Source: a virus
Lineage: Duplodnaviria; Heunggongvirae; Uroviricota; Caudoviricetes
DNA: 64,000 bases
IMG/VR virus record: IMGVR_UViG_3300046820_001896
Direction: 5' to 3' (one strand)
Part shown: positions 1,044-39,713 of the stretch, in pieces
Layout of the letters: every line of letters starts with the position of its first letter
How positions within the stretch are numbered: the stretch's first letter is position 1
Translations under genes and position numbers: made by a program
The notes under the pieces: generated by a model
What the model saw: the letters and a program-made list of their open reading frames with translations, nothing else
What the model was told of the DNA's origin: nothing
Database searches by the model: none

Positions 1044-1119
1044 CCCAATTAAGCTAATCTAGTGAAAGCGCTGGTCTGAAAAGCCAGATAGTCTGGAGCG
1101 TAACCAGAAGTTGGGACCA
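1044..1119 (+). tRNA. tRNA-like element (76 nt, anticodon loop ctgaaaa = GAA) with non-canonical T-loop AGCGTAA
   Basis: 7-bp acceptor cccaatt/agttggg plus CCA. Anticodon stem ctggt/gccag. T-stem tctgg/ccaga is perfect but the loop agcgtaa lacks TTC, and the D-arm is atypical. Confidence 0.4.
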
Positions 1120-2443: not shown

Positions 2444-2677
2444 ATGTTTTATATAATAACTAAAGATGGTTTCACATTGAATGCTAGTCCAACGTTGGAT
2501 GATGCAATGATTTTTGCTAAACATTATGGACGGTTTGTAACCATCAAAGGGAAAGATTTTGAAGCATGTGGTGTATTTGGCGTAGATTCTATTAAAGACG
2601 GAATATGTCCAGATGGCATTGCATATGATTGGAATAAAAAATCACGCATTGGTCGTGTAAAGAAAGAACGTAAATGA
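2444..2677 (+). CDS. hypothetical protein (77 aa)
   Basis: ORF lying between tRNA genes, with a basic C-terminus. Confidence 0.45.
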   Translation: MFYIITKDGFTLNASPTLDDAMIFAKHYGRFVTIKGKDFEACGVFGVDSIKDGICPDGIAYDWNKKSRIGRVKKERK

Positions 2678-2705
2678 AACGAAAACATAAACCTCGAAAA
2701 CCTAT

Positions 2706-2780
2706 GGGGGTATAACTTAACGGCTAAAGTACCTGGCTTTTAACCAGATAATCAGAGTTCGATTCTCTGTGCCCCTACCA
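2706..2780 (+). tRNA. tRNA-Lys (anticodon TTT)
   Basis: Acceptor gggggta/tgcccct, D-stem actt/aagt, anticodon loop cttttaa, T-arm cagag-ttcgatt-ctctg, CCA encoded. Confidence 0.8.
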
Positions 2781-2818
2781 TAAATCAAAGTATATTCACT
2801 GAGTGTATTTCGATCTAT

Positions 2819-2892
2819 GGTGTTAGTAGTGTAGTGGCTGCACGATTGTCTGTGAAACAATAAGAGAGGGTTCGATTCCCCCTTTCACCCCA
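2819..2892 (+). tRNA. tRNA-His (anticodon GTG), with extra 5' G pairing to C73
   Basis: Perfect anticodon stem attgt/acaat with loop ctgtgaa. T-arm gaggg-ttcgatt-ccccc. Acceptor has two internal T-T mismatches and the CCA is only partly encoded. Confidence 0.55.
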
Positions 2893-2900
2893 AAATTTAT

Positions 2901-2974
2901 GCCTCGGTAGTTTAAAAGTAGAACACCCTCCTTACAAGTGGAAGACGGCGGAGCGTTACCGCAACGAGGTACCA
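2901..2974 (+). tRNA. tRNA-like element or pseudo-tRNA with non-canonical T-loop AGCGTTA (same oddity as 1044-1119)
   Basis: Acceptor gcctcgg/acgaggt gives 6 of 7 bp, followed by A-CCA. T-stem ggcgg/ccgca. No good anticodon stem could be formed (candidate loop cttacaa). Confidence 0.3.
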
Positions 2975-3010
2975 AGATAAATAGTTAGAAGAGAAACAAA
3001 TGAGGTAGTT

Positions 3011-3568
3011 ATGAATGTGCTGGCATTAGACGTAGGTGGAATTCCACGTCAATGGTTAAACTTAGAACAAGCTATATTGTATCAAGCTAAAGGCCAAGTT
3101 GCTTGGTCTCTTGGTGATACAATCGCGAAGTTTCGTGGAGGTGTACAGAATGATGGAACAGAATCAATTCTTGAAACACCTTCTATCATCGCCATTAAAG
3201 GTGGTGAAGGTTTTAATCCAGCGAAGTTTGGTACAGTGGTTCTTAGCAATAAGACATTATTTGGTAGAGATCGTCATGTCTGCGCCTACTGCGGTAATCA
3301 TTTTACTTCTAATCATCTTTCCCGTGATCATATCGTTCCTATGTCACGTGGTGGTGAGAATAAGTGGATGAACGTAGTAACATCTTGCAAGAAATGTAAC
3401 TCACAAAAGAGTGACAAATCTTTGAAAGAAGCAGGTTTAGAGTTACTGTACATGCCTTACGAACCAAATCACTACGAACATATTATCCTTCAGAACCGCA
3501 ATATTCTTGCAGATCAAATGGATTATCTTCGGACAGGTGTACCAAAACATTCACGTGTTTTGTCTTAA
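3011..3568 (+). CDS. HNH homing endonuclease
   Basis: HNH motif CAYCG...SRDHIVPMSRGGENKWMNVVTSCKKCNSQK. RBS gaggtag precedes the start. Located in a tRNA cluster, as T4 segB is. Confidence 0.8.
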   Translation: MNVLALDVGGIPRQWLNLEQAILYQAKGQVAWSLGDTIAKFRGGVQNDGTESILETPSIIAIKGGEGFNPAKFGTVVLSNKTLFGRDRHVCAYCGNHFTSNHLSRDHIVPMSRGGENKWMNVVTSCKKCNSQKSDKSLKEAGLELLYMPYEPNHYEHIILQNRNILADQMDYLRTGVPKHSRVLS

Positions 3569-3577
3569 ATCAACGAA

Positions 3578-3602
3578 TGGAGGCTTATGCCTCCATTTTT
3601 TT
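3578..3602 (+). terminator. rho-independent terminator
   Basis: Hairpin tggaggc-ttat-gcctcca followed by TTTTTTT. Confidence 0.75.
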
Positions 3603-3616
3603 GGATATATAATATT

Positions 3617-4162
3617 ATGAAAAGCTATATTTCTGTATTTGATAATGTTCTTGAAGAAGACTTTTGTAAAAATCTTCGAGAGAAATTTGAACGAAGTAAA
3701 GATGTTTGGGTTAGACGTGACGATAAGTTTAAAACATTTAATGAGATCAACTTCGGTCAATATCCAATTTTTGCTGAAGAGCAAAATACTATTCTTTCTA
3801 AAGTTCAGCCATACGTACAAAAGTACTGTGAGCAATGGGATATTAAATTTTTCCCAGAACAAATTGGCTTCGAACAAGTGCGTATGAAAAAATACGAAGT
3901 CGGTGGAAAAGAAGAGTTTCGCCATCACGTTGACGTAGGCGATTATGCATCTGCTCGACGTTTTCTTGTCATGTTTTTTTATCTCAATAATGTTGCTGAA
4001 GGCGGTGAAACTGCTTTCATTGGTATTAATGACGATCAACGGGTTTCACCCAAAACAGGTCGCTTGCTAATGTTTCCACCAATGTGGACACATCCTCATG
4101 CAGGTTTGCCACCTATCACCAATCCAAAATATATCGTAGGTACATACCTGCATTATACCTAA
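3617..4162 (+). CDS. 2OG-Fe(II) oxygenase superfamily protein (prolyl-4-hydroxylase-like)
   Basis: HHVD ... GGETAF ... RLLMFP..H spacing matches the HxD...H iron-binding triad. The listed ORF start 3587 lies inside the terminator, so ATG 3617 is used. Confidence 0.6.
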   Translation: MKSYISVFDNVLEEDFCKNLREKFERSKDVWVRRDDKFKTFNEINFGQYPIFAEEQNTILSKVQPYVQKYCEQWDIKFFPEQIGFEQVRMKKYEVGGKEEFRHHVDVGDYASARRFLVMFFYLNNVAEGGETAFIGINDDQRVSPKTGRLLMFPPMWTHPHAGLPPITNPKYIVGTYLHYT

Positions 4163-4172
4163 AGTACTACAT

Positions 4173-4200
4173 GTACAGCAGGATATTTTTGTGGTATAAT
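4173..4200 (+). promoter_or_regulatory. sigma70-like early promoter of the catgtaca...tgtggtataat family
   Basis: tgtaca at 4173-4178, 16-nt spacer, tgtggtataat with tataat at 4195-4200. The flanking aaagtactacatgtaca is identical to that at 1301-1317. Confidence 0.6.
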
Positions 4201-4224
4201 ATAACCTATACTTAAGGAATAATA

Positions 4225-5157
4225 ATGCGTATTGCAGTAGCCAGTGATGTGCACCTAGAATTTGGTCCACTACTATTAAAAAATGAACAGAATGCAGATG
4301 TGCTTATCTTGAGTGGTGACATCTGCACAGCTAAAGGTCTTGACTATGCTGCAGGAAGCGGCATGTATGGTGATACGTATTCTACTTCTAAAAATCAACG
4401 ATTCATCGACTTCTTCAAAGCAATAACATTTCAATTTCCTCATGTGATCTATGTGTTAGGAAATCACGAGAGCTACAACTTTGATATCAAGTACACAGCT
4501 AAACACATCAAAGAACAGTTGCAACAATTCACAAACTTGTATGTTCTTGATGATGAATGTAAAAAAATTGATGATGTAACTTTCATCGGTGGTACCATGT
4601 GGACTGATATGAATAAAGAAGATCCACTAACATTATTTCATATCAAGAGCAGAATGAATGACTTCCGCGTTATCAAAAATGGTAATCGTGAAGTATTTCG
4701 CACTGTACCAATCTATGAATACAATGAAGATGGTAGCTTAAAGAAAGATGAGAATGGCTACAATATCCCAATTGGTCATAAGAAAAAGGCTGAAGTAGCA
4801 TCATTTAGCCCAGAAGATTCTGTTGAAATGCATAAAAGATTTAAACAGTATGTCGAAGTAGTTACAGATTTTTTAGGTGAGAATCCTAACAAATATGTTG
4901 TATGTACACATCATAGTCCTAGTTTTCAAAGTATGGCTCCATGGTATGCGAACGATCAACTAATGAATGGTGCATATCATAGTAATTTAGAAGAATTGAT
5001 GGAACGTCGTCCATGTATCAAATTGTGGACACATGGACATACACATGAACCATTCGACTATATGGTACACAACACAAGAGTTGTTTGTAATCCACGTGGT
5101 TATATTGGTCATGAACAACGCGCAAGAGATTTTGAATTAAAATACGTGGACGTTTAA
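4225..5157 (+). CDS. calcineurin-like metallophosphoesterase
   Basis: Motifs DVHLE, GDI, GNHE, HH, GHTH. Confidence 0.8.
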   Translation: MRIAVASDVHLEFGPLLLKNEQNADVLILSGDICTAKGLDYAAGSGMYGDTYSTSKNQRFIDFFKAITFQFPHVIYVLGNHESYNFDIKYTAKHIKEQLQQFTNLYVLDDECKKIDDVTFIGGTMWTDMNKEDPLTLFHIKSRMNDFRVIKNGNREVFRTVPIYEYNEDGSLKKDENGYNIPIGHKKKAEVASFSPEDSVEMHKRFKQYVEVVTDFLGENPNKYVVCTHHSPSFQSMAPWYANDQLMNGAYHSNLEELMERRPCIKLWTHGHTHEPFDYMVHNTRVVCNPRGYIGHEQRARDFELKYVDV

Positions 5158-5825: not shown

Positions 5826-6520
5826 AAGTAAATATTGGTCCATATGTAAATTGGGTTGGACCGTATCAAATCGCTGATAAAATTTTTTTCTGGGTTGAAA
5901 AATATCCAGAGGAAGAACTTGAAAATCGTTGGGATTATAAACTTCATGATAAGTTTGGCACATGGTTAGCTTCTACTTGGGTTGCAGATTTTTGCCAGTG
6001 GGTTCATAATTTCCAAAAACGAAAAGTAAAAGTAAAGATTGATTATTACGATCATTGGTCGTGTGATGCAACACTAGCACCAATCGTTTTACCATTACTT
6101 AAAAGCCTTAAAGAACACAAACATGGATCAGGTTATATTGAATTAGAAGATGTACCTGAAGCTATGCGTTTAACTAGCACAGAAGATTATGATGCTCAAT
6201 CAACATTTGAGTTTTATAATGATCCTGATTTAACGCGTCAAAATATTCAGTGTGATATTCATACTCGTTATGAATGGGTATTAGATGAAATGATTTGGGC
6301 ATTTGAACAGCTCAATGATGATAATTGGGAAGAACAATATTGGATCACACATCCAGAGATTGACTTTACTGAGTATCCAGAAGACGAAGGTAAAACTTCA
6401 AAACCGCTTCGTTGGAAAGTTAAAGGTGAATGTGATTGGGTAGGACGTCAGAAACATCAAGATCGTATCAATAATGGACTGCGTTTATTTGGTAAGTATT
6501 TTCAAACTTTATGGGATTAA
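5822..6520 (+). CDS. hypothetical protein (232 aa, Trp-rich)
   Basis: ORF with ATGA overlap of the upstream gene. Confidence 0.55.
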   Translation: MKVNIGPYVNWVGPYQIADKIFFWVEKYPEEELENRWDYKLHDKFGTWLASTWVADFCQWVHNFQKRKVKVKIDYYDHWSCDATLAPIVLPLLKSLKEHKHGSGYIELEDVPEAMRLTSTEDYDAQSTFEFYNDPDLTRQNIQCDIHTRYEWVLDEMIWAFEQLNDDNWEEQYWITHPEIDFTEYPEDEGKTSKPLRWKVKGECDWVGRQKHQDRINNGLRLFGKYFQTLWD

Positions 6521-6708
6521 TTATGTTAAAACTTTTATTCGTTGTTGCAATTGTTGTTATCATTATTGCATGTGGTCCAATCGCAACTATTCTATCGCTA
6601 AACACACTGTTTAATCTTGCAATTCCTATTACATTTGATACATGGATCTCTGCATTTTGGTTAGCAGCAGTGGTTGGTGGAACAATCAGTTATTCAAAGA
6701 GCAAATAA
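6511..6708 (+). CDS. small membrane protein with 2-3 predicted TM helices, holin candidate
   Basis: 65 aa and hydrophobic. It begins a run of small membrane ORFs upstream of the PAAR and endolysin genes. Confidence 0.35.
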   Translation: MGLIMLKLLFVVAIVVIIIACGPIATILSLNTLFNLAIPITFDTWISAFWLAAVVGGTISYSKSK

Positions 6709-7043
6709 TGGATCTACTAATTGGTATAGTAACAGGAGTTATATTAACTCTTATTGTGTTAAATATTCTTGCTAAAGCTGTTGATGAAATTAGAAATAAA
6801 CAACTCGACAAGAAACTAGAAGAAGGGTTACAAAAGCTTAGAGAAGTTGTAATTCCTAGTCGCATCGAAGTAGTCAATGGCATGTTGTTTTTGTACAACA
6901 AAGAAAATGGCGAATTCATAGCACAAGGTAAAAACTTCATTGAGTTAAACGATAATGCAAAAGCTCGTTATCCTGAGAAACTATTTAATGTACCTCAAAA
7001 CGAGATTGATGCAGTAACTAAAGGAATATCAATAAAGGTATGA
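6708..7043 (+). CDS. N-terminal TM plus coiled-coil protein (i-spanin-like)
   Basis: Internal start MDLLIGIVTG at 6708 overlaps the preceding stop (taATGg). One TM helix followed by a helical periplasmic region. Confidence 0.4.
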   Translation: MDLLIGIVTGVILTLIVLNILAKAVDEIRNKQLDKKLEEGLQKLREVVIPSRIEVVNGMLFLYNKENGEFIAQGKNFIELNDNAKARYPEKLFNVPQNEIDAVTKGISIKV

Positions 7044-7315
7044 TTAACGATAATAAATTTTATACGATAGTTGTAGCTATTACTATTTTACTTGGTGGAT
7101 GCATTGCATGGGGAATTATTTCAAGTAATAATCGTGCAGAAGCTGTTAAGTTGGCTTTAGAAAAAGGTCAAAATCCATTATATGTTAAGTGTTCAATGAA
7201 TACTACAACAACAGAAGAGTGCCAATCTATGATTATGGCTATGTCACTCTCAGGTCAATTTAAGGACGCCTCAGCTCCTATTTCAGTCTCACCAGCAAGT
7301 TACCCTAAAAAGTAA
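7040..7315 (+). CDS. putative lipoprotein (o-spanin candidate)
   Basis: Signal peptide with LLGGC lipobox. Start overlaps the upstream gene (ATGA). Confidence 0.35.
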   Translation: MINDNKFYTIVVAITILLGGCIAWGIISSNNRAEAVKLALEKGQNPLYVKCSMNTTTTEECQSMIMAMSLSGQFKDASAPISVSPASYPKK

Positions 7316-7346: not shown

Positions 7347-7673
7347 ATGCCAGGAATTGCTAGAGTTGGTGTTGACAAAGCCGGTGGAGTAGTCACCGGT
7401 AATTTAGCTCCCACAGTTTTCGTAAATGGTTCACCTATCGTAGTGATAGGTGCAACTATTGCAGGTCACGGACTTGCTCCTCACGCTTCTCCAACTATGG
7501 TTGAAGGAGCTGTTGACGTGTTTGCGAATGGTATAGGTATATGTAGAACTGGCGATTTGGCATCGTGCGGTCATGCTATTTCAGGTTCAGATAATGTATT
7601 AACAGGATTTTACCCAAATCCGGGACCTACACGATTTGGTATTTCGAAATTTGGTGTGGAGAAACAAGGATAA
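7347..7673 (+). CDS. PAAR-repeat spike-tip protein (gp5.4-like)
   Basis: Repeated ...GSP.V.I.G...A..GD.....C..GH...GS..V. motifs typical of PAAR domains. Confidence 0.75.
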   Translation: MPGIARVGVDKAGGVVTGNLAPTVFVNGSPIVVIGATIAGHGLAPHASPTMVEGAVDVFANGIGICRTGDLASCGHAISGSDNVLTGFYPNPGPTRFGISKFGVEKQG

Positions 7674-7674
7674 T

Positions 7675-8094
7675 ATGGCATTAAAATATGCAGATAACGT
7701 TGGATCACAATTATTTGATCCTATTGGAGAAACAGATACTTTTGTAGTAGTAGAATCTGTTACATCATTTCCAGCAAATATATCACCAACTGATTTTGCT
7801 GTAGCAACTATTGCTAACGATGATAATAGTTTAACAGAATCGATTAAAATTACTTTTATTGATCGTCCTACTAGAACATTGACAATAGAACGAGGATACG
7901 ATGATTCGACACCGCGCAATTGGCCAAAAGGATCTAAATTAGAAATTCGTATTTCATCTGGTTTTTTCAGAGCATTTGAAGAACAGGTAAATACATATAC
8001 CGACGATGCAATTTCTGCATTAGAAACTTCATCGAATACAACAACAGAAGCTAAATCTAAAGCAGCATTTGCAGTTGCTTTTGTATTAAGCTAA
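7675..8094 (+). CDS. hypothetical protein
   Basis: ATG 7675 has RBS aaggataat. The listed ORF start 7636 is an upstream extension. Confidence 0.5.
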   Translation: MALKYADNVGSQLFDPIGETDTFVVVESVTSFPANISPTDFAVATIANDDNSLTESIKITFIDRPTRTLTIERGYDDSTPRNWPKGSKLEIRISSGFFRAFEEQVNTYTDDAISALETSSNTTTEAKSKAAFAVAFVLS

Positions 8095-8103
8095 GGAGAT
8101 TAA

Positions 8104-8733
8104 ATGTCTTTTGATTTTGAATTTACGCAAGAAAAACTTGCACACGTTATTCCTAACGCAAAGTATGGAGTAGAAACATGGCACAAAGAATTGGTAGAAC
8201 TTTTACCAGTTTTTGAAATTACTACAGTTGGTCGTGTTGCTGCATTTGTTGCGCAAACTGCTCATGAATCTGGTGGTTATACAGCACTAAAAGAAAACTT
8301 AAACTATAGTGCTGAAGGTTTGCATAAACTATGGCCAAATCGTTTCCCAACGGTTGAGTCAGCTATGCCTTATAATCGTAATCCGCAAGCTATCGCTAAT
8401 AAAGTTTACTCATCACGTATGGGTAACGGAGATGAACATAGCGGTGAAGGTTGGTTGTATTGCGGTCGTGGTCTACTACAATTGACTGGTAAAGCAAACT
8501 ATTCTGCATTCGCACAATACGCAGGTATGTCAGTAGAAGATGCACCTGAATATATCGAATCTCCACGCGGTGCTGTACACTCAGCATGTTGGTTCTGGTA
8601 TTCAAATGACTTGAATACATACGCAGATGCTGGTGATTTCACTGGTATGACTAAGCGTATCAATGGTGGTACAATCGGTTTAGACGATCGTATCAAACAT
8701 TATAATCACGCTGTAGAGATTTTCTCAGCGTAA
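8104..8733 (+). CDS. glycoside hydrolase family 19 endolysin (resembles Acinetobacter-phage endolysins such as LysAB2)
   Basis: AAFVAQTAHESGG ... NLNYSA ... GRGLLQLTGKANY ... ACWFW ... RINGG motif series, as in GH19 phage lysins. Confidence 0.75.
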   Translation: MSFDFEFTQEKLAHVIPNAKYGVETWHKELVELLPVFEITTVGRVAAFVAQTAHESGGYTALKENLNYSAEGLHKLWPNRFPTVESAMPYNRNPQAIANKVYSSRMGNGDEHSGEGWLYCGRGLLQLTGKANYSAFAQYAGMSVEDAPEYIESPRGAVHSACWFWYSNDLNTYADAGDFTGMTKRINGGTIGLDDRIKHYNHAVEIFSA

Positions 8734-8768: not shown

Positions 8769-9002
8769 ATGAAAAAATTAATGTTAGCATTAGCGATTAC
8801 GTTTGGTATGACTAGTGTTTATGCTGCTGATCCAAAACCAGCACCGAAATTAGATTGCACAAAACCAGCAAATAAGAGTAAAGGTCCATGTCTTAAAGCA
8901 CCTGAGTCAAAAACAAAGGTAGAGATTAAGAAACCTGAGAAAAAGAAAGCTGCACCTGCTGCAACACAAAAGAAAGCTGCAGAAAATAACGCTAAACAAT
9001 AA
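8769..9002 (+). CDS. small secreted Lys-rich protein (signal peptide, cleavage near VYA-AD)
   Basis: N-terminal signal peptide, followed by a terminator. Confidence 0.5.
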   Translation: MKKLMLALAITFGMTSVYAADPKPAPKLDCTKPANKSKGPCLKAPESKTKVEIKKPEKKKAAPAATQKKAAENNAKQ

Positions 9003-9058: not shown

Positions 9059-9085
9059 AAAGGGGACGAAAGTCCCCTTTTTTTA
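9059..9085. terminator. bidirectional rho-independent terminator
   Basis: aggggac-gaaa-gtcccct followed by TTTTTT on the plus strand. It separates convergent plus and minus gene blocks. Confidence 0.75.
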
Positions 9086-9098
9086 TGCTTACTACTAT

Positions 9099-9653
9099 TT
9101 AAATAGTAATCGGTACAACTAACCATATACCTTGTGTTAGTAATAGAAGACCTATTACACCAACACCGAGGCTTGCATAATACATTCGCATATTGACAGC
9201 GATGATAGATGCGGATAATAAAACAATGGCGAGTTGGAATAACATTCCAGAGAATGTCAACCATGGACCATGTTTACGTGCTTCTTCACGTTCAGCTTCG
9301 TATGCTCTTGCTTTAGCTAAAAGTTCTTTCTTACCTTCACCAGATACTGGATCAGATTCGTATCTTTCGATCTTTGCTTTTAGTTTATCGGCTCTCGCAT
9401 GATCGCCTCTGTCTTTAGCTGTTTCGTATTCTGCTTCAGCTAATGATTGTTTCAATGATTTAGCTTGAAAGAATCCATACGTATTAGACGCTTTTAACAA
9501 ATTAGTCATCGCTGATCCGCTAAAGCTATTAGCAAAATATGTGTTTAATGCTAAGAACAATGCCATAATGACAATCACTAAACCAGCTTTGTCTTTAATT
9601 TGTGCTTCACGTTCGCTACGTGTCAATGGTTTCTTTTCTACAACTTCAGTCAT
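9099..9653 (-). CDS. membrane protein, DUF4337-like (N-terminal cytoplasmic, TM, coiled coil, C-terminal TMs)
   Basis: Hydrophobic segments and an architecture recalled for the DUF4337 family. Confidence 0.5.
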   Translation of the reverse strand: MTEVVEKKPLTRSEREAQIKDKAGLVIVIMALFLALNTYFANSFSGSAMTNLLKASNTYGFFQAKSLKQSLAEAEYETAKDRGDHARADKLKAKIERYESDPVSGEGKKELLAKARAYEAEREEARKHGPWLTFSGMLFQLAIVLLSASIIAVNMRMYYASLGVGVIGLLLLTQGIWLVVPITI

Positions 9654-9663
9654 ATAATTTCCT

Positions 9664-10158
9664 TTATTTTCCTGCTAATGGGTTATCCAAAGCTTTCTGA
9701 ATCTTATTATCTATCTCTTTACGTACGTTACGGATTTCACGATCTACTTCTTTTTGAGCTTCTGTTGCTTCACGTGCAGATTGTTTAGCTGAACGTTCTA
9801 CTTGTTCAACAACTCCTTCTAAACGACGGATATCATTCTTAAGATCATTCTTGATATCACGTGTGTAGTCATTTGTCTTTGAGCTGTTTTCTTCGATGAC
9901 AGCTAACTTTTTATGCACTTCAGTCAAATCTGGTGTAACATACTCAGCAATCTTTTTCTTCATGCTTTGATAGTCTTTATATACTTCGAATACGCCGTAT
10001 AAACCACCAAGTGTTGATGATACGATTGTTGCTGCAATCATCAATTTAGCTGGAGTAAATTCATAACCACCAATACTAATTACAGTATTAGCACTCATGT
10101 ATTTTTCTTTAGCATCTGCTAAATCGTCTATCTTTTTGTTTAAGTTTTTATCTGACAT
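9664..10158 (-). CDS. membrane-anchored coiled-coil protein
   Basis: One TM helix (TIVSSTLGGLYGVF) and a charged heptad-rich C-terminus. Confidence 0.55.
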   Translation of the reverse strand: MSDKNLNKKIDDLADAKEKYMSANTVISIGGYEFTPAKLMIAATIVSSTLGGLYGVFEVYKDYQSMKKKIAEYVTPDLTEVHKKLAVIEENSSKTNDYTRDIKNDLKNDIRRLEGVVEQVERSAKQSAREATEAQKEVDREIRNVRKEIDNKIQKALDNPLAGK

Positions 10159-10167
10159 TTTCTTCCC

Positions 10168-10347
10168 TTATTTCCACACTATATGTGTGCTTTTCTTTGT
10201 TGAACTAGATTTAGCAACTGGTTTTACAGGTGCTTTTCGTTTTTGTGGTGATTGAGCCTTAGTACAATTCAATTCGTAAAGCGTATAAAGGGATAGTGCT
10301 AAGGATATCACTGAAATTACATAAGCTACAAATGGCATATAATCCAT
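10168..10347 (-). CDS. small membrane protein (about 60 aa)
   Basis: Internal start MDYMPFVAYVISVISLAL directly follows the stop of the 647-aa gene. Confidence 0.35.
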   Translation of the reverse strand: MDYMPFVAYVISVISLALSLYTLYELNCTKAQSPQKRKAPVKPVAKSSSTKKSTHIVWK

Positions 10348-10348
10348 G

Positions 10349-12292
10349 TCAATCCTTTCTGTTATATTGTGAATCAACCATATCATAGTGCACTTTATCT
10401 GAAGGACCAAATAGTCCCATACTTGCACGACGATTATCAATAGTCTTTTGATTGTTGTATACTGTAAATGGTTTGTAACCTGCCACATCTGGCATTTTTA
10501 CTTGATAAGCATCAAATCCTGGAGTAAAACCCATTGCTTGGATAACTACGTTTTGAATTTGCTTTTGCTGTTCCATATCAGCAGCTTTACCCATGTTTCC
10601 AGCTAAATTTTTACCATCCTCAACTGCTTTAGCTTTTGCTGCTGCTTCACGTCTTGCTTGAAGTTCTTGGCGTGCAGTTGGTTTTGGACTATCTGAAGTT
10701 TTACTATTATTTGTTGATGCAGTTGTTGTAGATCCACCAGAAGATGCTTGTGTATTTGATGGAGCATTTTCTTTAGGTTCTTCTTTTTTGGCTGGTGCAG
10801 GTGCTGTAGCGACTGACGTAACAGAAGTTGGTGAAGATGTGCTCGTAGAACTAACTGAAGGTGTTAAACTAACAGCAGTAGTCGCTGCTGCCGCAGGAGA
10901 CGCAGATGTAGATGTTGATGTAACAACGTTATTAACAACTGGATCTGATATCACCGCTACAGGAGTTGATGATGTATTTGTATTAGATGCTACAACTACA
11001 GTTTCGGCAACAGTAGTTGTTGTCGTAGTAGTAGGTGTGTTTTGTCTTTGTAATGCTTGTTGAGTAGCATACGCTTCACCATAATTTGGGCAACGAGTAG
11101 AATACAAACCGCTTATTGTACATTGTTGACTAAAATATGCTTCTTGATATCCTGGACAATCTGTAGCATATAACGCATTGATAGAACATTGCTGTGCTTT
11201 GTAAGCTTGTTGATAACCACTACACGTTGTAGAATATAATGGATTTAATGAACATTGTAATTCTAAATAAGCTGTCGCATAACCTGGACAGTTCACAGAA
11301 TATAGTGTATTCAATGAACATTGTTGCTCGAAGTATGCTTGTTGATAACCACTACATGTTGTAGAATATAATGGATTAATAGAGCATTGTTGTTGTAAAT
11401 AAGCAGCTTGATAACCTGGACATTGTTGACTATACAATGGATTTGTAGAGCATTGTTGTGTTAAGTGTGCAGCTGCATATCCTGGACAAGATGGATCAAA
11501 TAATGCACTTATTGTACATTGTTGAGCAGTGTAAGCAACTTGATATCCTGGACATGTTGGTGATGATAATGGATTGATGATACACATGTCAACTGGACCT
11601 GTACCATTAGGTGCTTGCCAACTAAAAATACTTGCACTTCCAGGCGTAATGTTTAAACCTCGGCCGTGATAGTATTGATAATACTCACCATTTGCCAAGT
11701 TACCAGACATACCTGAAGTAACTGCATTCCATTGTACCATGGCACCAGCAATTCGTGTATCAACTAAACCAGCAGAGTTGATTTTAATCTCAAAACTATT
11801 ACCGCCTTGTGATGAACAACATTGACTTAAATTATACCAACCATATGTCATACTATTACCTTCACGCAGGTAATATTGGTTTTGGCCATTCCAAGAATAT
11901 AAATCTGTGTGTATACCAAAAATAGAGTAATTGTAACGAGGATCTGTTGTTGTTCTTAAATCAACACCTGTACAACATAATCCATAAGCACCGCTTTGCA
12001 TTGGATCTTGGAACGTTACAACGCCATTAGTCATTGCCCATGAATTATTGAACACTCTACCAAAAAATGGAAAATCAAAACCTAATGGAACATTGCGCCA
12101 ATCGTCATCAGCTGCAGTAATATTAACTGCATTTGGATTTGTGCGAATATTTTGTAAAGGTAAAGCATTAGCGCCTGTTCCAACTGTTATCGACAATCCA
12201 GGAGGAGCACCAGGAATTTGGATCGTAACAAGTTCAGCACGTGCAACAACCGTGCTTACTAATAATAGTAAGGACACAAGTAAGCGCTTCAT
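10349..12292 (-). CDS. secreted modular protein: signal peptide, about 250-aa N-terminal domain, eight tandem repeats of roughly 19-20 aa (QQCSINPLYSxxCPGYQxAY), Thr/Ser-rich linker, C-terminal domain
   Basis: Signal peptide MKRLLVSLLLLVSTVVARA. Tandem two-Cys repeats are visible in both protein and DNA. Poly-Thr/Ser low-complexity region. Confidence 0.7.
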   Translation of the reverse strand: MKRLLVSLLLLVSTVVARAELVTIQIPGAPPGLSITVGTGANALPLQNIRTNPNAVNITAADDDWRNVPLGFDFPFFGRVFNNSWAMTNGVVTFQDPMQSGAYGLCCTGVDLRTTTDPRYNYSIFGIHTDLYSWNGQNQYYLREGNSMTYGWYNLSQCCSSQGGNSFEIKINSAGLVDTRIAGAMVQWNAVTSGMSGNLANGEYYQYYHGRGLNITPGSASIFSWQAPNGTGPVDMCIINPLSSPTCPGYQVAYTAQQCTISALFDPSCPGYAAAHLTQQCSTNPLYSQQCPGYQAAYLQQQCSINPLYSTTCSGYQQAYFEQQCSLNTLYSVNCPGYATAYLELQCSLNPLYSTTCSGYQQAYKAQQCSINALYATDCPGYQEAYFSQQCTISGLYSTRCPNYGEAYATQQALQRQNTPTTTTTTTVAETVVVASNTNTSSTPVAVISDPVVNNVVTSTSTSASPAAAATTAVSLTPSVSSTSTSSPTSVTSVATAPAPAKKEEPKENAPSNTQASSGGSTTTASTNNSKTSDSPKPTARQELQARREAAAKAKAVEDGKNLAGNMGKAADMEQQKQIQNVVIQAMGFTPGFDAYQVKMPDVAGYKPFTVYNNQKTIDNRRASMGLFGPSDKVHYDMVDSQYNRKD

Positions 12293-12294
12293 GC

Positions 12295-12768
12295 TTACTC
12301 TTTACTTTTTACTTTTTGTGGCTTGCGATCTGGATCTGCTTCCCAGATTTGTTTAGCCTGTTCACCGATTTTGCCATCTGCTGGACATGGTGTACCAGCA
12401 TTCATCATAGCTGTGAATACACGTTCATCTTGGCATAAAGTTGATACAGCTGCAACTTTCATACCCATATCGTATAATGAACGAGCTAATTTTAAGCGTT
12501 CGCAGTTCTTATCGGTAACACTACCGCCAAAAGAAATGCCCAACACTTGAGTTTGAGCAGCGCCTGAATATCCTACTGCACAGACGTCACTATTGATAAC
12601 TGTAATTGCTGGTGCAACTGCAGTTGGAGGAGGAGATTTTACTGTTGTTGTGCTATTTGAAGTAGAATCTGTTGTGGATCTACTTGTCGAGTCGGTAACA
12701 ATTGGTTGAGCAATTGTTAATGATGTAGTCATAACAAAAAGCACCGTTGCGGCGATCTTTTTGTACAT
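12295..12768 (-). CDS. secreted Ser/Thr-rich protein with C-terminal Cys-containing domain
   Basis: Start MYKKIAATVLFVMTTSLTIAQP is a signal peptide, with RBS aggaaa 5 nt upstream on the minus strand. Confidence 0.55.
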   Translation of the reverse strand: MYKKIAATVLFVMTTSLTIAQPIVTDSTSRSTTDSTSNSTTTVKSPPPTAVAPAITVINSDVCAVGYSGAAQTQVLGISFGGSVTDKNCERLKLARSLYDMGMKVAAVSTLCQDERVFTAMMNAGTPCPADGKIGEQAKQIWEADPDRKPQKVKSKE

Positions 12769-12853
12769 GGTTTTTCCTGTTTTAGTTATTATAATGAAAC
12801 CAGTGGCATTTTTTGCCACCATGACACTTATTGTTATTTATAAATAAAAGCAT

Positions 12854-38423: not shown

Positions 38424-39713
38424 ATGACAAATAAAGTTTGTGGTGTAAATGCCGCTTTAGATGAAGCAAAAGCAGGAATTAATTCTTTAAAAGATAAAAT
38501 TTCTGGTGGATTAGACTCGATTGGAGATTTAGGTGGTTTAGCAACTACTATTAAAAATAAACTTGCTGAGGTAAATGTACCTCAACTTCCAACAATAAAT
38601 CTTCAAGCAGAATTAGCTAATTTACCTAAATTAACTCCTGAAGAATATGCAGCCAAAGTAGCTGAATTAAAAAAAGCTTTTGGAGATGCAGTTCCAAATT
38701 TAGATAATATTATTTCTAAAATTCCTAAACCAGCAGGCGTGGATGGAGTTGGCCAAAAAGATATTTTTGCAGATTTAAAAGCTTTAGCTGGTGATGTTGG
38801 TGCTGCTGTTAGAAAGGCACAAGAAGAACTCGCAAACTTAAGCATTGATTCTGTTGTTGCTGATGTATGTAAAGAAGTACCAAACGTAGAAGTAGTTACT
38901 ACTACTGAAACTGTTAAAATTGCTGATCCAAAAACTGGTAAAGAAACTAAAGTTGAAGTTCCTGTAACATCTCCACCAGTTGAAAAAGCAAAACCACCTA
39001 CAACACCAAAAGAAAATCCTAAAAAAGAAATACCACCTTCAGAACCTCCTGCAAAAGGTTTTACTTTTAATTTTACAAGAGAAAAATTAATTGCTGCAGG
39101 TGGAAAAGAAGCAGGACCATGGTATGATGCTATGGTAGAAATGTTGCCAAAATATAACATCACAACTCCTGAAAGAGTTGCCGCATTTATTGGTAACGTA
39201 AGAGCTGAATCTACATGGACTAAGTTGTCTGAAAATTTAAATTATGGAGCTAAGTACTTATTTGAAAGATTAAATCCTGGACGTATTCGTTTTCCAACTT
39301 ATGAGGATGCTGTTAAAGTAGAAAGAAAACCAGAACCTATTGCTAACATAATTTATATGGTTGGTCGTAAATTGCTAGATCCACAACCAGGTGATGGTTG
39401 GAAATTTAGAGGGCGTGGATTGATTGGTTTAACCTTTAAAGATGAATATTTAAGAGCTTCTAAAGCAATCTATAATGATGATAGATTGGTACAAAATCCA
39501 GATTTAGTTGCAACTGATAGAACTACAGCAATCTTAACTGCATGTTATTTCTTTAAACGCAATAATATGAATCCATGGGCAGATAAACAAGATTGGGGAA
39601 ATTGTAGAAGTATCGTTAATGCTGGTTCTCCTGGTAAAGATCCTAAAATTATTCACGGATATGAGTCTGGAGTAAAATTTCAACAAGATGCATATAACGT
39701 TCTGAAAGGTTAA
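38424..39713 (+). CDS. baseplate-associated peptidoglycan hydrolase: helical N-terminus, Pro/Lys linker, C-terminal GH19-like lysozyme domain
   Basis: AAFIGNVRAESTW ... NLNYGA ... GRGLIGLT ... ACYFF pattern parallels the endolysin at 8104. Confidence 0.65.
   Translation: MTNKVCGVNAALDEAKAGINSLKDKISGGLDSIGDLGGLATTIKNKLAEVNVPQLPTINLQAELANLPKLTPEEYAAKVAELKKAFGDAVPNLDNIISKIPKPAGVDGVGQKDIFADLKALAGDVGAAVRKAQEELANLSIDSVVADVCKEVPNVEVVTTTETVKIADPKTGKETKVEVPVTSPPVEKAKPPTTPKENPKKEIPPSEPPAKGFTFNFTREKLIAAGGKEAGPWYDAMVEMLPKYNITTPERVAAFIGNVRAESTWTKLSENLNYGAKYLFERLNPGRIRFPTYEDAVKVERKPEPIANIIYMVGRKLLDPQPGDGWKFRGRGLIGLTFKDEYLRASKAIYNDDRLVQNPDLVATDRTTAILTACYFFKRNNMNPWADKQDWGNCRSIVNAGSPGKDPKIIHGYESGVKFQQDAYNVLKG

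What the first reader, a model, noticed from the sequence alone, without database searches (positions are those of the whole stretch)
9099..12822. Minus-strand island encoding secreted and membrane proteins, including a 647-aa protein with eight tandem two-cysteine repeats
Five genes run opposite to the surrounding plus-strand block, bounded by a bidirectional terminator (9059-9085) and a palindromic promoter region (12833-12850). The large protein has a signal peptide and a roughly 250-aa domain. That is followed by eight tandem repeats of about 19-20 aa (QQCSINPLYSxxCPGYQxAY), a poly-Thr/Ser linker and a C-terminal domain. A second, 158-aa secreted Ser/Thr-rich protein lies upstream, and three membrane proteins (one DUF4337-like) lie downstream. 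An exported, disulfide-rich modular protein looks like a cell-surface or periplasm-acting factor rather than a virion component. It could mediate superinfection exclusion, envelope or receptor modification, or act on neighbouring cells.
Basis: seen in the sequence. Interest (0 to 1): 0.75.

Follow-up and report, generated by a model that had tools for sequence, protein, structure and literature searches.

The report
Conserved secreted envelope module of pelagiphage-like phages
The minus-strand "island" is real, but it is not a strain-specific insert: it is an undescribed module of exported and membrane proteins, conserved in thousands of uncultured aquatic phages and in cultured SAR11 and Roseobacter phages, that is probably made late in infection and probably acts on the cell envelope, perhaps at lysis.

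Summary
Five minus-strand genes (9099-12768) lie between a hairpin terminator (9059-9080) and a palindrome (12835-12846) that carries the T4 late-promoter octamer TATAAATA on both strands. The 647-aa protein has a signal peptide, a beta-sandwich head, eight repeats, a disordered Thr/Ser linker and a C-terminal domain. The repeats are exactly 22 aa, not 19-20, and each has two Cys.

The core is a three-gene module:
- A: a secreted 157-aa protein with a 4-Cys domain.
- B: the 647-aa protein.
- C: an inner-membrane coiled-coil protein ending in NPL.

The module recurs in the same order in all 30 IMG/VR loci. A and C each have at least 8,000 metagenome clusters. Diverged versions occur in Pelagibacter phages HTVC023P, 115P, 033P, 202P, Baldr and Mosig, and in roseophages CRP-207 and CRP-810. 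None is annotated or discussed in the papers searched.

A, B and C have no Pfam, PDB or fold match. No copy was found in an isolate bacterial genome.

Late-promoter motifs, late-region placement and frequent proximity to four different endolysin types favour a periplasm-spanning complex that acts at lysis (spanin-like, but without a lipoprotein). Confidence is about 0.4. Superinfection exclusion remains a live rival. Function is untested.

The parts
12835..12846 (.). Palindrome TATTTATAAATA carrying the T4-type late-promoter octamer TATAAATA on both strands. The minus-strand copy (12842->12835) faces the module.
   Evidence: Seven of the 8 TATAAATA copies in the window are intergenic and no more than 33 nt upstream of a same-strand start, against a 6% background. 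In L074 the same motif precedes gp23-, gp22- and gp19-like genes and the A gene. Promoter function is inferred, not shown.
12801..12821 (-). Stem-loop in the 5' leader between the promoter motif and the start codon of A (TGGTGGCAAAAAATGCCACTG).
   Evidence: Flagged. A near-identical hairpin is present in the close relative L002. Role unknown.
12295..12768 (-). Protein A, 157 aa. It has a signal peptide (cleavage about TIA|QP), a strongly conserved Ser/Thr-rich segment ending PPPTAVAP, and a roughly 95-aa 4-Cys domain (C..NCERLKL..GMKVAAV..LCQDERVF..GTPCP).
   Evidence: At least 7,989 homologue clusters. phrog_20531, unknown function, E 6e-16. The domain is 55-65% identical to proteins of Pelagibacter phages. 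Its HMM hits A-like genes in 10 isolate loci with E from 4e-50 to 3e-15. The AF2 model is unusable (pLDDT 45).
12236..12292 (-). Protein B, signal peptide (residues 1-19, MKRLLVSLLLLVSTVVARA|E).
   Evidence: The N-terminal hydrophobic segment with an AxA-type site is conserved in position but not in sequence across 44 homologues.
11585..12235 (-). Protein B, N-terminal beta-sandwich 'head' (residues 20-236) with two invariant vicinal Cys pairs.
11057..11584 (-). Protein B, eight tandem 22-aa repeats (residues 237-412), consensus C-S-x-N-P-L-Y-S-x-x-C-P-G-Y-x-x-A-Y-x-x-Q-Q. Predicted as a helix-plus-loop solenoid.
   Evidence: AF2 pLDDT about 88-90 with one helix per unit. Copy number is 2-15, with a mode of 6-9, in 170 apparently complete homologues.
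10673..11056 (-). Protein B, disordered Thr/Ser/Ala/Pro-rich linker (residues 413-540).
   Evidence: Composition. pLDDT below 40. Marine relatives have a Glu-rich linker here instead.
10349..10672 (-). Protein B, conserved C-terminal domain (residues 541-647, ..QNVVIQAMGFTPGFDAY..Y.P..Y..Q..DN....H..MVDSQY) plus stop codon. This is the part shared with the middle proteins of pelagiphage isolates.
   Evidence: BLASTP to HTVC115P gp53 gives E 2e-7. The profile hits 115P gp53 at 4e-8 and 023P gp46 at 4.5e-4. After one iteration it hits Baldr 003 at 8e-8 and 033P gp45 at 4e-5. AF2 confidence is low.
10168..10347 (-). 59-aa single-TM protein with a basic C-terminal tail, starting 1 nt after the stop codon of B.
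   Evidence: Homologues sit in the same position in L002, L006 and L021. Small ORFs of 47-66 aa occupy this position in L074-L076.
9664..10158 (-). Protein C, 164 aa. It has an N-terminal cytoplasmic segment with a GGY-x-F motif, a TM segment at 39-57, about 105 aa of coiled coil predicted to be periplasmic, and an invariant C-terminal NPL motif (..ALDNPLAGK).
   Evidence: At least 8,000 homologue clusters. All 120 listed members end in NPL[AS]x. It is 40% identical to HTVC115P gp49. The HMM also hits CRP-207 gp73 and CRP-810 gp51. Only coiled-coil-type weak Pfam and NCBIfam hits.
9099..9653 (-). DUF4337 membrane protein, 184 aa (TM, coiled coil, then two TM segments). It is an optional companion of the module.
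   Evidence: Pfam PF14235, E 1.4e-30, 107 bits against a cut-off of 27. TM profile. It lies downstream of C or upstream of A in 9 of 30 loci.
9059..9080 (.). GC-rich hairpin shared by the convergent plus-strand (endolysin) and minus-strand (module) transcription units.
   Evidence: The T-run is strong on the + strand and weak on the - strand.
8104..8733 (+). Neighbour: GH19-type endolysin, convergent with the module.
   Evidence: Pfam Glyco_hydro_19, E 1e-6. phrog_181 endolysin, E 4e-78.
8769..9002 (+). Neighbour: 77-aa secreted protein. The mature part is a Lys/Pro-rich cationic peptide with two Cys and no lipobox.
   Evidence: No family hit. Conserved in L002.

Best explanation
The region encodes a phage-specific envelope module made late in infection.

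**Proposed arrangement**
- Protein C sits in the inner membrane and projects a roughly 100-residue coiled coil into the periplasm. The coil ends in an invariant NPL peptide.
- Protein B is exported by Sec. It is built like a tethered stalk: a conserved C-terminal docking domain, a roughly 130-residue flexible linker, a rigid rod of disulfide-stapled 22-aa helix-loop repeats whose number (and so length) varies between phages, and an exchangeable beta-sandwich head.
- Protein A is a small exported protein. It has a disordered polar N-terminal part and a highly conserved 4-Cys domain.
- I propose that A, the C-terminal domain of B and the tip of C assemble into a complex that spans the periplasm from the inner membrane towards the wall and outer membrane.
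- I propose that it acts at the last stage of infection, helping to breach or detach the outer layers once the endolysin has cut the wall. That is the job spanins do in other phages, here without an outer-membrane lipoprotein.

**Shown by these analyses**
- Gene order and conservation.
- Domain architecture, export signals and TM topology as sequence features.
- The promoter motif, and proximity to endolysins in some genomes.

**Inferred**
- Complex formation.
- Late transcription.
- The lysis role.
For: 1. **Invariant module.** The order A-B-(small TM)-C is the same in all 30 IMG/VR loci and in L001 and L074-L076, despite unrelated flanks.
2. **Same tripartite layout in isolates.** It occurs in cultured myo-, podo- and sipho-type phages of SAR11 and Roseobacter. 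The conserved parts are the A domain, the C-terminal domain of B, and the TM, coiled coil and NPL end of C. The head of B is swapped. That pattern suggests the conserved parts contact each other or a conserved host structure.
3. **C has i-spanin architecture.** It has an N-terminal TM segment and a periplasmic coiled coil, with the conserved contact motif at the distal C-terminus.
4. **Late timing.**
   - TATAAATA faces the module in the window and in L002.
   - TATAAATAAT precedes A in L074, just as it precedes the gp23-, gp22- and gp19-like genes there.
   - TATAAATA lies within 160 nt upstream of A in 10 of 26 loci, against about 1% expected.
   - Early genes in related loci instead carry TTGACA-N17-TATAAT.
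   - In the podo- and sipho-type isolates the module lies in late or structural regions, or just before the terminase gene.
5. **True peptidoglycan hydrolases of four different families lie within four genes of the module.**
   - GH19 in the window, L001, L007 and L008.
   - Peptidase_M15_3 in HTVC023P, immediately after C.
   - Amidase_2 in HTVC033P.
   - Phage_lysozyme in MW202481.
   - In other T4-like loci C is followed by the small membrane or secreted proteins c12-c9-c13. In L001 and L007 these same proteins adjoin GH19.
6. **No canonical o-spanin candidate.** No small lipobox ORF was found near the module in the window, or anywhere in the complete HTVC202P genome.
7. **Phage-only distribution.** All 30 genome-collection hits are MAG contigs from scattered taxa.
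Against: - There is no experimental or expression data. Promoter function is inferred from a motif.
- Spanin systems need an outer-membrane anchor. Neither A nor B has a lipobox, a beta-barrel or any recognised outer-membrane or peptidoglycan-binding domain.
- A 450-900-aa protein with an exchangeable head is not needed in any known spanin. It looks more like a specificity or recognition device.
- In most T4-like loci (L003-L006, L009-L030, L075, L076), and in HTVC202P, Baldr, Mosig, CRP-207 and CRP-810, no endolysin is adjacent. In HTVC202P the M15 endolysin is 20 kb away.
- Other small TM proteins near the window's endolysin (6511-7315) could themselves supply holin- or spanin-like functions.
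- The module is absent from many pelagiphages, including the HTVC010P/019P types, HTVC008M and Melnitz. It is therefore not universally required.
- Coiled-coil bitopic proteins are common and not diagnostic.
Confidence: 0.4

Rival explanations
1. Superinfection exclusion or receptor masking. The exported complex would occupy or modify a periplasmic or outer-membrane structure used by incoming phages (a receptor, a porin or the DNA-entry route). Alternatively it would mask receptors on debris so that progeny are not lost. The exchangeable head of B would provide the specificity.
For: - The components are exported, disulfide-rich and tethered in the periplasm.
- The head domain of B is swapped between lineages while the rest is kept, as expected for a recognition module.
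- The module occurs in many unrelated phages that compete for the same very abundant hosts.
- There are precedents for periplasmic gatekeepers. T4 Sp/Imm and P1 Sim are cited from my own knowledge. The bacterial HXS effector with repeats is described in PMC13128918.
Against: - Known exclusion proteins are made early or from prophages. Here late-promoter motifs and late-region placement dominate.
- Within a head type, B is highly conserved (60-78% identity). A is 55-65% identical between freshwater myophages and marine podophages. That is unlike typical arms-race proteins.
- There are no hits to defence or exclusion models.
Confidence: 0.25
2. Lysis-timing sensor. B would act as a periplasmic antenna and C as the membrane partner that modulates a holin. 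This would be analogous in logic to the T4 RI/T lysis-inhibition system.
For: - The module is late, periplasmic and membrane-coupled.
- It lies next to small holin-like TM proteins (tm59, DUF4337, c9, c13, MEM352) and sometimes next to the endolysin.
- These are T4-like phages, where lysis control operates in the periplasm (established T4 biology, from my own knowledge).
Against: - There is no similarity to RI, RIII or T.
- The same module occurs in podo- and sipho-type phages, where lysis inhibition is not known.
- The rigid repeat rod of variable length has no obvious role in sensing.
Confidence: 0.1
3. Surface or aggregation factor. This would be analogous to the curli (type VIII secretion) modules of other pelagiphages. 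B would be a repeat protein displayed or polymerised outside the cell to aggregate hosts ('sibling capture') or to shield the infected cell.
For: - Pelagiphages are known to carry an unrelated envelope module with secreted Q/N-rich repeat proteins, transferred between myo- and podoviruses (PMC9599517, PMC7029224, PMC9004378).
- Among the isolates checked the two modules look complementary. HTVC008M and Melnitz have CsgG but no A. Mosig has A-B-C but no CsgG.
- Freshwater pelagimyophages are reported to lack curli genes.
Against: - No CsgG or CsgF, nor any outer-membrane export component, was found in the window or in the loci held.
- The repeats are predicted helical and Cys-stapled, not curlin-like, and give no Curlin_rpt hit.
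- B appears tethered to an inner-membrane partner.
Confidence: 0.07
4. Virion or assembly component that was mistaken for an exported protein.
For: Late promoter motifs are shared with structural genes. In the podovirus isolates the module lies near structural genes.
Against: - A and B have canonical Sec signals, and B has 20 conserved Cys.
- C and its neighbours are membrane proteins.
- There are no PHROG structural hits and no BFVD match to structural proteins.
Confidence: 0.03

Closest known systems
Two-component spanins (lambda Rz/Rz1, T4 PseT.3/PseT.2, T7 gp18.5/18.7)
   Same: - Phage-encoded and late.
- Spans the envelope.
- C has the i-spanin layout: an N-terminal TM segment, a periplasmic coiled coil, and a conserved contact site at the distal C-terminus.
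- Often close to the endolysin.
   Different: - There is no outer-membrane lipoprotein partner, and no embedded or overlapping ORF.
- There is no sequence similarity.
- Two extra exported proteins are present, one of them large and modular.
- C has no Cys in most members.
- It is not always in a lysis cassette.
T4 Spackle/Imm, P1 Sim and similar periplasmic superinfection-exclusion proteins
   Same: Phage-encoded proteins that are exported to, or anchored in, the envelope of the infected cell. Spackle is a small disulfide-containing periplasmic protein.
   Different: - Those are small single proteins, made early or from prophages.
- There is no homology.
- Here there is a three-part module with late-promoter motifs.
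Pelagiphage curli / type VIII secretion module (CsgG, CsgF, CsgA/B-like; PMC9599517, PMC7029224)
   Same: - A multigene envelope module absent from the host.
- Shared across myo- and podovirus pelagiphages.
- Includes a secreted tandem-repeat protein.
- Function in infection unresolved (lysis timing, aggregation and exclusion have all been proposed).
   Different: - There are no shared genes.
- There is no outer-membrane pore.
- The repeats are 22-aa Cys-stapled helical units rather than curlin beta-repeats.
HXS defence effector HxsA (PMC13128918)
   Same: A periplasmic protein with short tandem repeats that acts on phage infection from within the periplasm.
   Different: - It is a bacterial system, matured by radical-SAM enzymes, with His-x-Ser repeats and a peptidoglycan-binding domain.
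- There is no homology.
- The only link seen here is the adjacency of radical-SAM genes to the module in one locus (L074).
Pfam DUF4337 (PF14235)
   Same: The last gene of the block (9099-9653) is a full-length member.
   Different: The family itself is uncharacterised. This gene is an optional companion of the module, not part of its invariant core.

Membership tests
Two-component spanin | i-spanin: a type II inner-membrane protein with an N-terminal TM segment and a largely coiled-coil periplasmic domain | tested here: met
   Protein C has a TM segment at 39-57 followed by about 105 aa that give only coiled-coil-type weak hits. This is an architectural match only.
Two-component spanin | o-spanin: a small outer-membrane lipoprotein (lipobox plus Cys) encoded within, overlapping or next to the i-spanin gene | tested here: not met
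   A regex scan of all frames found no lipobox ORF in 8.7-12.9 kb. The candidate at 7040-7315 has the Cys inside a TM helix. No candidate was found in the complete HTVC202P genome. A, B and the 77-aa protein have type I signal peptidase sites.
Two-component spanin | Sequence membership in a known spanin family (Pfam or PHROG) | tested here: not met
   No Pfam, PHROG or NCBIfam spanin hit for any of the five proteins.
Two-component spanin | Located in the lysis cassette with the holin and endolysin | tested here: inconclusive
   The module is adjacent or within four genes in the window, L001, L007/8, HTVC023P, HTVC033P and MW202481. It is not adjacent in HTVC202P, Mosig or most T4-like loci.
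Two-component spanin | Required for outer-membrane disruption at lysis | not testable with these tools
   This needs genetics and microscopy of infected cells.
Early superinfection-exclusion proteins (T4 Imm/Sp type) | Expressed early, from early or host-type promoters | tested here: not met
   A T4 late-type TATAAATA motif, not a TTGACA-N17-TATAAT promoter, faces the module in the window, L002, L074 and the L004-type loci. This is motif-based inference only.
Early superinfection-exclusion proteins (T4 Imm/Sp type) | Sequence or fold similarity to Imm, Sp, Sim, Cor or Llp | tested here: not met
   No hit in Pfam, PHROGs, PADLOC, PDB sequences or fold searches.
Curli / type VIII secretion module | CsgG outer-membrane pore and CsgF encoded with the repeat protein | tested here: not met
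   tblastn with E. coli CsgG and with HTVC008M CsgF, CsgG and CsgB found nothing in the window or in any locus held. Only 64 kb of the phage genome was visible.
Curli / type VIII secretion module | Curlin-type repeats in the secreted subunit | tested here: not met
   No Curlin_rpt hit. The repeats are predicted helical with two Cys each.
Pfam DUF4337 | Score above the Pfam gathering threshold over the full-length model | tested here: met
   107 bits against a cut-off of 27, covering model positions 5-160 of 161.
NIDO-like extracellular beta-sandwich (lead from memory for the head of B) | Match to Pfam NIDO, or a structural match | tested here: not met

The most novel reading that the evidence does not exclude
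A-B-C is a new, lipoprotein-independent class of envelope-spanning lysis machinery. The inner-membrane coiled-coil protein C would couple, through the 4-Cys protein A, to a length-adjustable stalk protein B. The exchangeable lectin-like head of B would grip the wall or outer membrane. This would be how many of the most abundant phages on Earth (pelagiphages and their freshwater relatives) and some roseophages complete lysis of their small, wide-periplasm hosts.
Probability: 0.25. Interest if true: 0.8.

Novelty: new variant of a known kind. Interest (0 to 1): 0.6.

Why it matters
- **Abundance.** The three proteins form one of the most frequent uncharacterised gene sets in aquatic viral metagenomes. 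A and C each have at least 8,000 clusters at 90% identity, and B has more than 2,800.
- **Hosts.** The module is carried by cultured phages of SAR11 and Roseobacter, hosts that dominate surface waters.
- **Open question.** How these phages breach the envelope, or what they do to it, is unknown. The only envelope module discussed so far (curli/T8SS) is a different one.
- **Testability.** Defining the module, its conserved contact parts (the A domain, the C-terminal domain of B, the NPL tip of C) and its variable head gives concrete targets. These can be tested in existing culture systems.
- **Annotation.** It also corrects misleading labels: 'lysozyme' for CRP-207 gp73 and CRP-810 gp51, which have no Pfam hit, and 'OmpA family' and 'TonB' for neighbouring proteins.
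- **Wider interest.** If the lysis role is right, it would add a third solution for outer-membrane disruption, alongside spanins and disruptin-type peptides.

Tried and rejected
1. **Link to the pelagiphage curli operon.** No CsgG, CsgF or CsgB homologue was found in the window or loci, and the repeats are not curlin-like.
3. **Structure of A.** The AF2 model had pLDDT 45, so no fold search was run on it.
4. **Sequence or profile hits to solved structures** for A and B: none.
5. **NCBIfam, PADLOC and PHROG annotation.** Nothing informative. C gives only coiled-coil noise such as ZorA, SMC and ATP synthase b.
6. **Annotation labels in relatives.**
   - 'OmpA family' for CRP-810 gp53 and 'TonB' for the MW202481 protein are not supported by Pfam.
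   - 'Lysozyme' for CRP-207 gp73 and CRP-810 gp51 is not supported by Pfam either. They are C homologues, so I removed them from the endolysin-proximity tally.
7. **Carbohydrate-binding head.** Only a sub-threshold CBM_4_9 hit (E 0.02) in HTVC202P gp25. It is kept as a lead.
8. **Unannotated lipoprotein-like 86-aa ORF upstream of the A-like gene in CRP-810.** It looked A-like by eye but does not match the A profile.
9. **'CTAAATA' upstream of A in other lineages as a late promoter.** Not relied on, because the same string also arises by chance at the C stop codon.
10. **Host assignment from genome bins.** The hits are MAG contigs of incompatible taxa, so they are uninformative.
11. **Compositional island.** Rejected, because GC is the same as in the flanks.

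Full report
**1. Setting**

The window comes from a T4-like myovirus.
- It has a tRNA array: 12 by ARAGORN and 14 by Rfam.
- It encodes gp6-, gp5- and gp25-like baseplate proteins, a tape-measure-like protein and tail-fibre proteins.
- The best cultured relatives are Methylophilales phage Melnitz and Pelagibacter phages HTVC008M and Mosig, at about 40% amino-acid identity on gp6.
- No isolate genome matches the finding at DNA level.

**2. The observation**

Five co-directional minus-strand genes lie in an otherwise plus-strand block.

| Gene | Coordinates | Product |
|---|---|---|
| A | 12295-12768 | 157 aa, secreted |
| B | 10349-12292 | 647 aa, secreted |
| small TM | 10168-10347 | 59 aa |
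| C | 9664-10158 | 164 aa |
| DUF4337 | 9099-9653 | 184 aa (Pfam E 1.4e-30) |

- *Start of A:* The start is the MYKK codon at 12768. It has an AGGA ribosome-binding site, and homologues are 157 aa long.
- *Downstream boundary:* The hairpin at 9059-9080 has 9 bp and a strong T-run for the convergent plus-strand unit. That unit ends with a GH19 endolysin and a 77-aa secreted peptide. The T-run on the minus strand is weak.
- *Upstream boundary:* This is the palindrome TATTTATAAATA at 12835-12846.
- *Composition:* GC does not differ from the flanks, so this is an inverted transcription unit, not a compositional island.

**3. Protein B**

| Residues | Feature |
|---|---|
| 1-19 | canonical Sec signal (..VVARA\|E) |
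| 20-236 | all-beta domain with two invariant vicinal Cys pairs |
| 237-412 | eight repeats of exactly 22 aa, C-x9-C-[PS]-[GN]-Y-x2-A-Y-x2-Q-Q |
| 413-540 | Thr/Ser/Ala/Pro-rich linker |
| 541-647 | conserved C-terminal domain |

- At DNA level the repeats have period 66 with 70% matches, so they are old and diverged.
- AlphaFold2 with a 44-sequence alignment gives:
  - a beta-sandwich head (pLDDT 70-88);
  - a very regular helix-plus-loop solenoid for the repeats (pLDDT about 88-90);
  - a disordered linker;
  - a poorly defined C-terminal domain.
- B has no Pfam, PHROG, NCBIfam or PADLOC hit and no PDB sequence hit.
- The model has no significant structural neighbour among solved structures.
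- In BFVD the model matches only uncharacterised proteins of uncultured phages and of Synechococcus phage S-SRM01.

**4. The family is very large and modular**

- B has more than 2,849 homologues at 90% clustering and 602 representatives at 50% clustering. None has a Pfam domain.
- In 170 apparently complete members the repeat number ranges from 2 to 15, with a mode of 6-9.
- Some members replace or precede the window-type head with a second beta-rich head marked by a 'YYGP' motif. Linkers may be acidic instead of Thr/Ser-rich. The C-terminal domain is kept throughout.

**5. The real unit is a three-gene module**

- In all 30 IMG/VR loci, and in four further contigs, the order is A, B, (small TM), C on one strand. 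Flanking genes are mostly unrelated to those in the window.
- DUF4337 is present in 9 loci, either after C or before A.
- A roughly 350-aa multi-TM coiled-coil protein (called MEM352 here) precedes A in many T4-like loci.
- A and C each return at least 8,000 homologue clusters, which is the ceiling of the search.
- A scan of one genome per bacterial and archaeal species for two A peptide patterns found 30 relatives. All are on MAG contigs from incompatible taxa, which suggests mis-binned phage DNA.

**6. Cultured phages carry diverged versions, unannotated**

The A domain (residues 60-153) is 53-65% identical to 'hypothetical proteins' of six Pelagibacter phages. It is more distantly related to proteins of roseophages CRP-207 and CRP-810 and of Ralstonia phage RSP15.

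| Phage | A-like | B-like | C-like |
|---|---|---|---|
| HTVC115P | gp54 | gp53 | gp49 |
| HTVC023P | gp45 | gp46 | gp48 |
| HTVC202P | gp24 | gp25 | gp26 |
| HTVC033P | gp46 | gp45 | gp44 |
| Baldr | 001 | 003 | 004 |
| Mosig | 202 | 201 | 200 |
| CRP-207 | gp75 | gp74 | gp73 |
| CRP-810 | gp53 | gp52 | gp51 |

- *Layout:* Next to each A-like gene lies a middle protein, then a TM coiled-coil protein. The middle protein is 430-610 aa in the pelagiphages and 187-261 aa in the two roseophages. Five of the six pelagiphage middle proteins start with a hydrophobic, signal-like segment. HTVC115P gp53 and the two roseophage proteins do not, as annotated.
- *C-like calls:* HTVC115P gp49, CRP-207 gp73 and CRP-810 gp51 match the C profile (E 1.3e-36, 2.8e-6 and 3.9e-3). 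For 023P, 202P and Mosig the call rests on the TM segment, coiled coil and NPL end. For HTVC033P gp44 and Baldr 004 it rests on position and size only.
- *B C-terminal domain:* The middle proteins of 115P, 023P, Baldr and 033P match the profile of B's C-terminal domain (4e-8 and 4.5e-4; after one iteration 8e-8 and 4e-5). For 202P, Mosig and the two roseophages the B-like call rests on position only.
- *NPL motif:* All 120 listed C homologues end in NPL[AS]x. So do the four isolate C proteins checked there and, from the sequences, CRP-207 gp73 and CRP-810 gp51.
- *Mislabels:* The 'lysozyme' labels on CRP-207 gp73 and CRP-810 gp51 have no Pfam support. These proteins are C homologues.
- *Conserved parts:* These are the 4-Cys domain of A, the C-terminal domain of B, and C. 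Their co-conservation against a changing head and linker suggests they contact each other or a conserved host component. This is inference.

**7. Timing**

- The octamer TATAAATA, the T4 late-promoter core (established T4 biology), occurs 8 times in the window.
- Seven copies are intergenic and no more than 33 nt upstream of a same-strand start. Only about 6% of strand-positions lie within 78 nt upstream of a start.
- These copies precede a PAAR-like gene heading the operon that contains the endolysin, a baseplate-wedge gene, and both faces of the palindrome next to A.
- In L074, TATAAATAAT precedes the gp23-, gp22- and gp19-like genes and also A. Early genes in L075 and L076 carry TTGACA-N17-TATAAT instead.
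- TATAAATA lies on A's strand within 160 nt upstream in 10 of 26 loci, against roughly 1% expected by chance.
- In the podo- and sipho-type isolates the module sits in late or structural regions, or immediately before the terminase gene.
- I infer late expression. It has not been measured.

**8. Link to lysis**

*For:*
- Confirmed peptidoglycan hydrolases of four families lie within four genes of the module:
  - GH19 in the window, L001, L007 and L008;
  - Peptidase_M15_3 directly after C in HTVC023P;
  - Amidase_2 in HTVC033P;
  - Phage_lysozyme in MW202481.
- In another T4-like lineage C is followed by three small membrane or secreted proteins (c12, c9, c13). In L001 and L007 the same three adjoin GH19.
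- C has the architecture of an i-spanin.
- No lipoprotein o-spanin candidate exists near the module, or anywhere in the complete HTVC202P genome.

*Against:*
- Most T4-like loci place the module among nucleotide-metabolism genes with no hydrolase nearby.
- The HTVC202P endolysin is 20 kb away.
- A and B have no recognisable outer-membrane or wall anchor.
- A large protein with an exchangeable head is not a feature of any known spanin.

**9. Comparison with known systems**

- *Spanins:* The module fails the defining spanin test of a lipoprotein partner and shows no homology, so it is not a spanin. It may still work like one.
- *Exclusion proteins:* It does not resemble T4 Sp/Imm-type exclusion proteins in sequence, size or inferred timing.
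- *Curli module:* It is distinct from the pelagiphage curli/T8SS module described in PMC7029224, PMC9004378 and PMC9599517. It shares the pattern of an envelope module passed between phage families. Among the few isolates checked the two modules appear complementary.
- *Literature:* I found no paper describing these proteins.

**10. Verdict**

- The reading 'exported, not virion' is supported by sequence features.
- The reading 'island' is not supported.
- The best-supported mechanism is a late, periplasm-spanning A-B-C complex acting at or around lysis, with confidence about 0.4.
- The main rival is superinfection exclusion or receptor masking, at about 0.25.
- All functional statements are inferences from architecture, motifs and gene neighbourhood.

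Noticed in passing
window 8769-9002 (+): A 77-aa secreted protein lies directly after the GH19 endolysin. Its mature 58-aa part is strongly cationic, Lys/Pro-rich, has two Cys and no lipobox. It could be a non-lipoprotein o-spanin-like or 'disruptin'-like outer-membrane-active peptide. It is conserved in L002.
   Followed up: partly
window 6511-7315 (+): Three small membrane proteins lie upstream of the endolysin operon. The first is a 65-aa two-TM protein of a family seen in 11 related loci. The second is a 111-aa protein with a TM segment and a helical part, starting at 6708. The third is a 91-aa protein whose 'LLGGC' lies inside a TM helix rather than in a lipobox. All three are holin-, antiholin- or spanin-type candidates.
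   Followed up: partly
window 7347-8094 and 38424-39713 (+): A PAAR-like protein (7347-7673) and a short protein resembling a tail-fibre N-terminus (7636-8094) share a TATAAATA-headed operon with the 209-aa GH19 endolysin. A second GH19-domain protein (429 aa) sits next to the gp5-like hub and is presumably the tail-associated lysin.
   Followed up: no
window 12801-12821 (-): A conserved stem-loop lies in the leader between the late-promoter motif and the A start codon. It is also present in L002. Possible attenuator or mRNA-stability element.
   Followed up: no
L004, L009, L012, L015-L017, L019, L022, L024, L026 and L030, about 60-110 nt upstream of the A gene: A conserved leader element containing the inverted repeat TGTCAACCTGACA, followed by GGTATTCTTTATTATCCCC, lies upstream of A. 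In most of these loci a TATAAATA lies further upstream. It looks like an operator or an RNA element.
   Followed up: no
L074 380-7348: Three radical-SAM genes, a HamA_HO-like gene and an epimerase lie immediately upstream of the A-B-C module in one T4-like contig. The window has a radical-SAM gene at 52524-53957, far from the module. Whether the Cys repeats of B are radical-SAM substrates was not examined.
   Followed up: no
L032 (HTVC115P) 2511-5024: A gene annotated as an RtxC/HlyC-type toxin-activating lysine acyltransferase (gp46), and a 685-aa protein with no Pfam hit (gp47), lie just downstream of the module in HTVC115P. This could be an acylated membrane-active protein.
   Followed up: no
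L042 3292-3873 (CRP-207 gp73); L035 5165-5587 (CRP-810 gp51); L035 3779-4534 (gp53); L034 5227-6333: Deposited annotations ('putative lysozyme', 'lysozyme', 'OmpA family protein', 'transport protein tonB') are not supported by Pfam. The first two are homologues of protein C. gp53 is an A homologue.
   Followed up: yes
L035 3561-3821 (+): An unannotated 86-aa ORF with a good lipoprotein signal (..STLLSAC) lies immediately upstream of the A-like gene of roseophage CRP-810. It does not match the A profile.
   Followed up: partly
L007 6275-7333 and equivalents in 21 loci: A roughly 350-aa protein (several N-terminal TM segments, a long coiled coil, another TM segment, an acidic tail; weak DUF4407-like hit) directly precedes A in many T4-like loci. 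In others it sits between UvsX- and DNA-polymerase-like genes. It was not found in this window.
   Followed up: partly
window 1044-1116, 1207-1301, 2901-2971: Rfam calls two tRNA-like genes that ARAGORN missed (1044-1116 and 2901-2971). The tRNA-Ile(tat) at 1207-1301 is unusually long at 95 nt.
   Followed up: no
L036 3374-4321 (Ralstonia phage RSP15 ORF122): An A-type 4-Cys domain is preceded by about 180 aa of extreme Gly/Asn/Gln/Ser low-complexity sequence. This shows that the polar disordered N-terminal part of A is a general feature, and that the domain reaches phages of Betaproteobacteria.
   Followed up: partly
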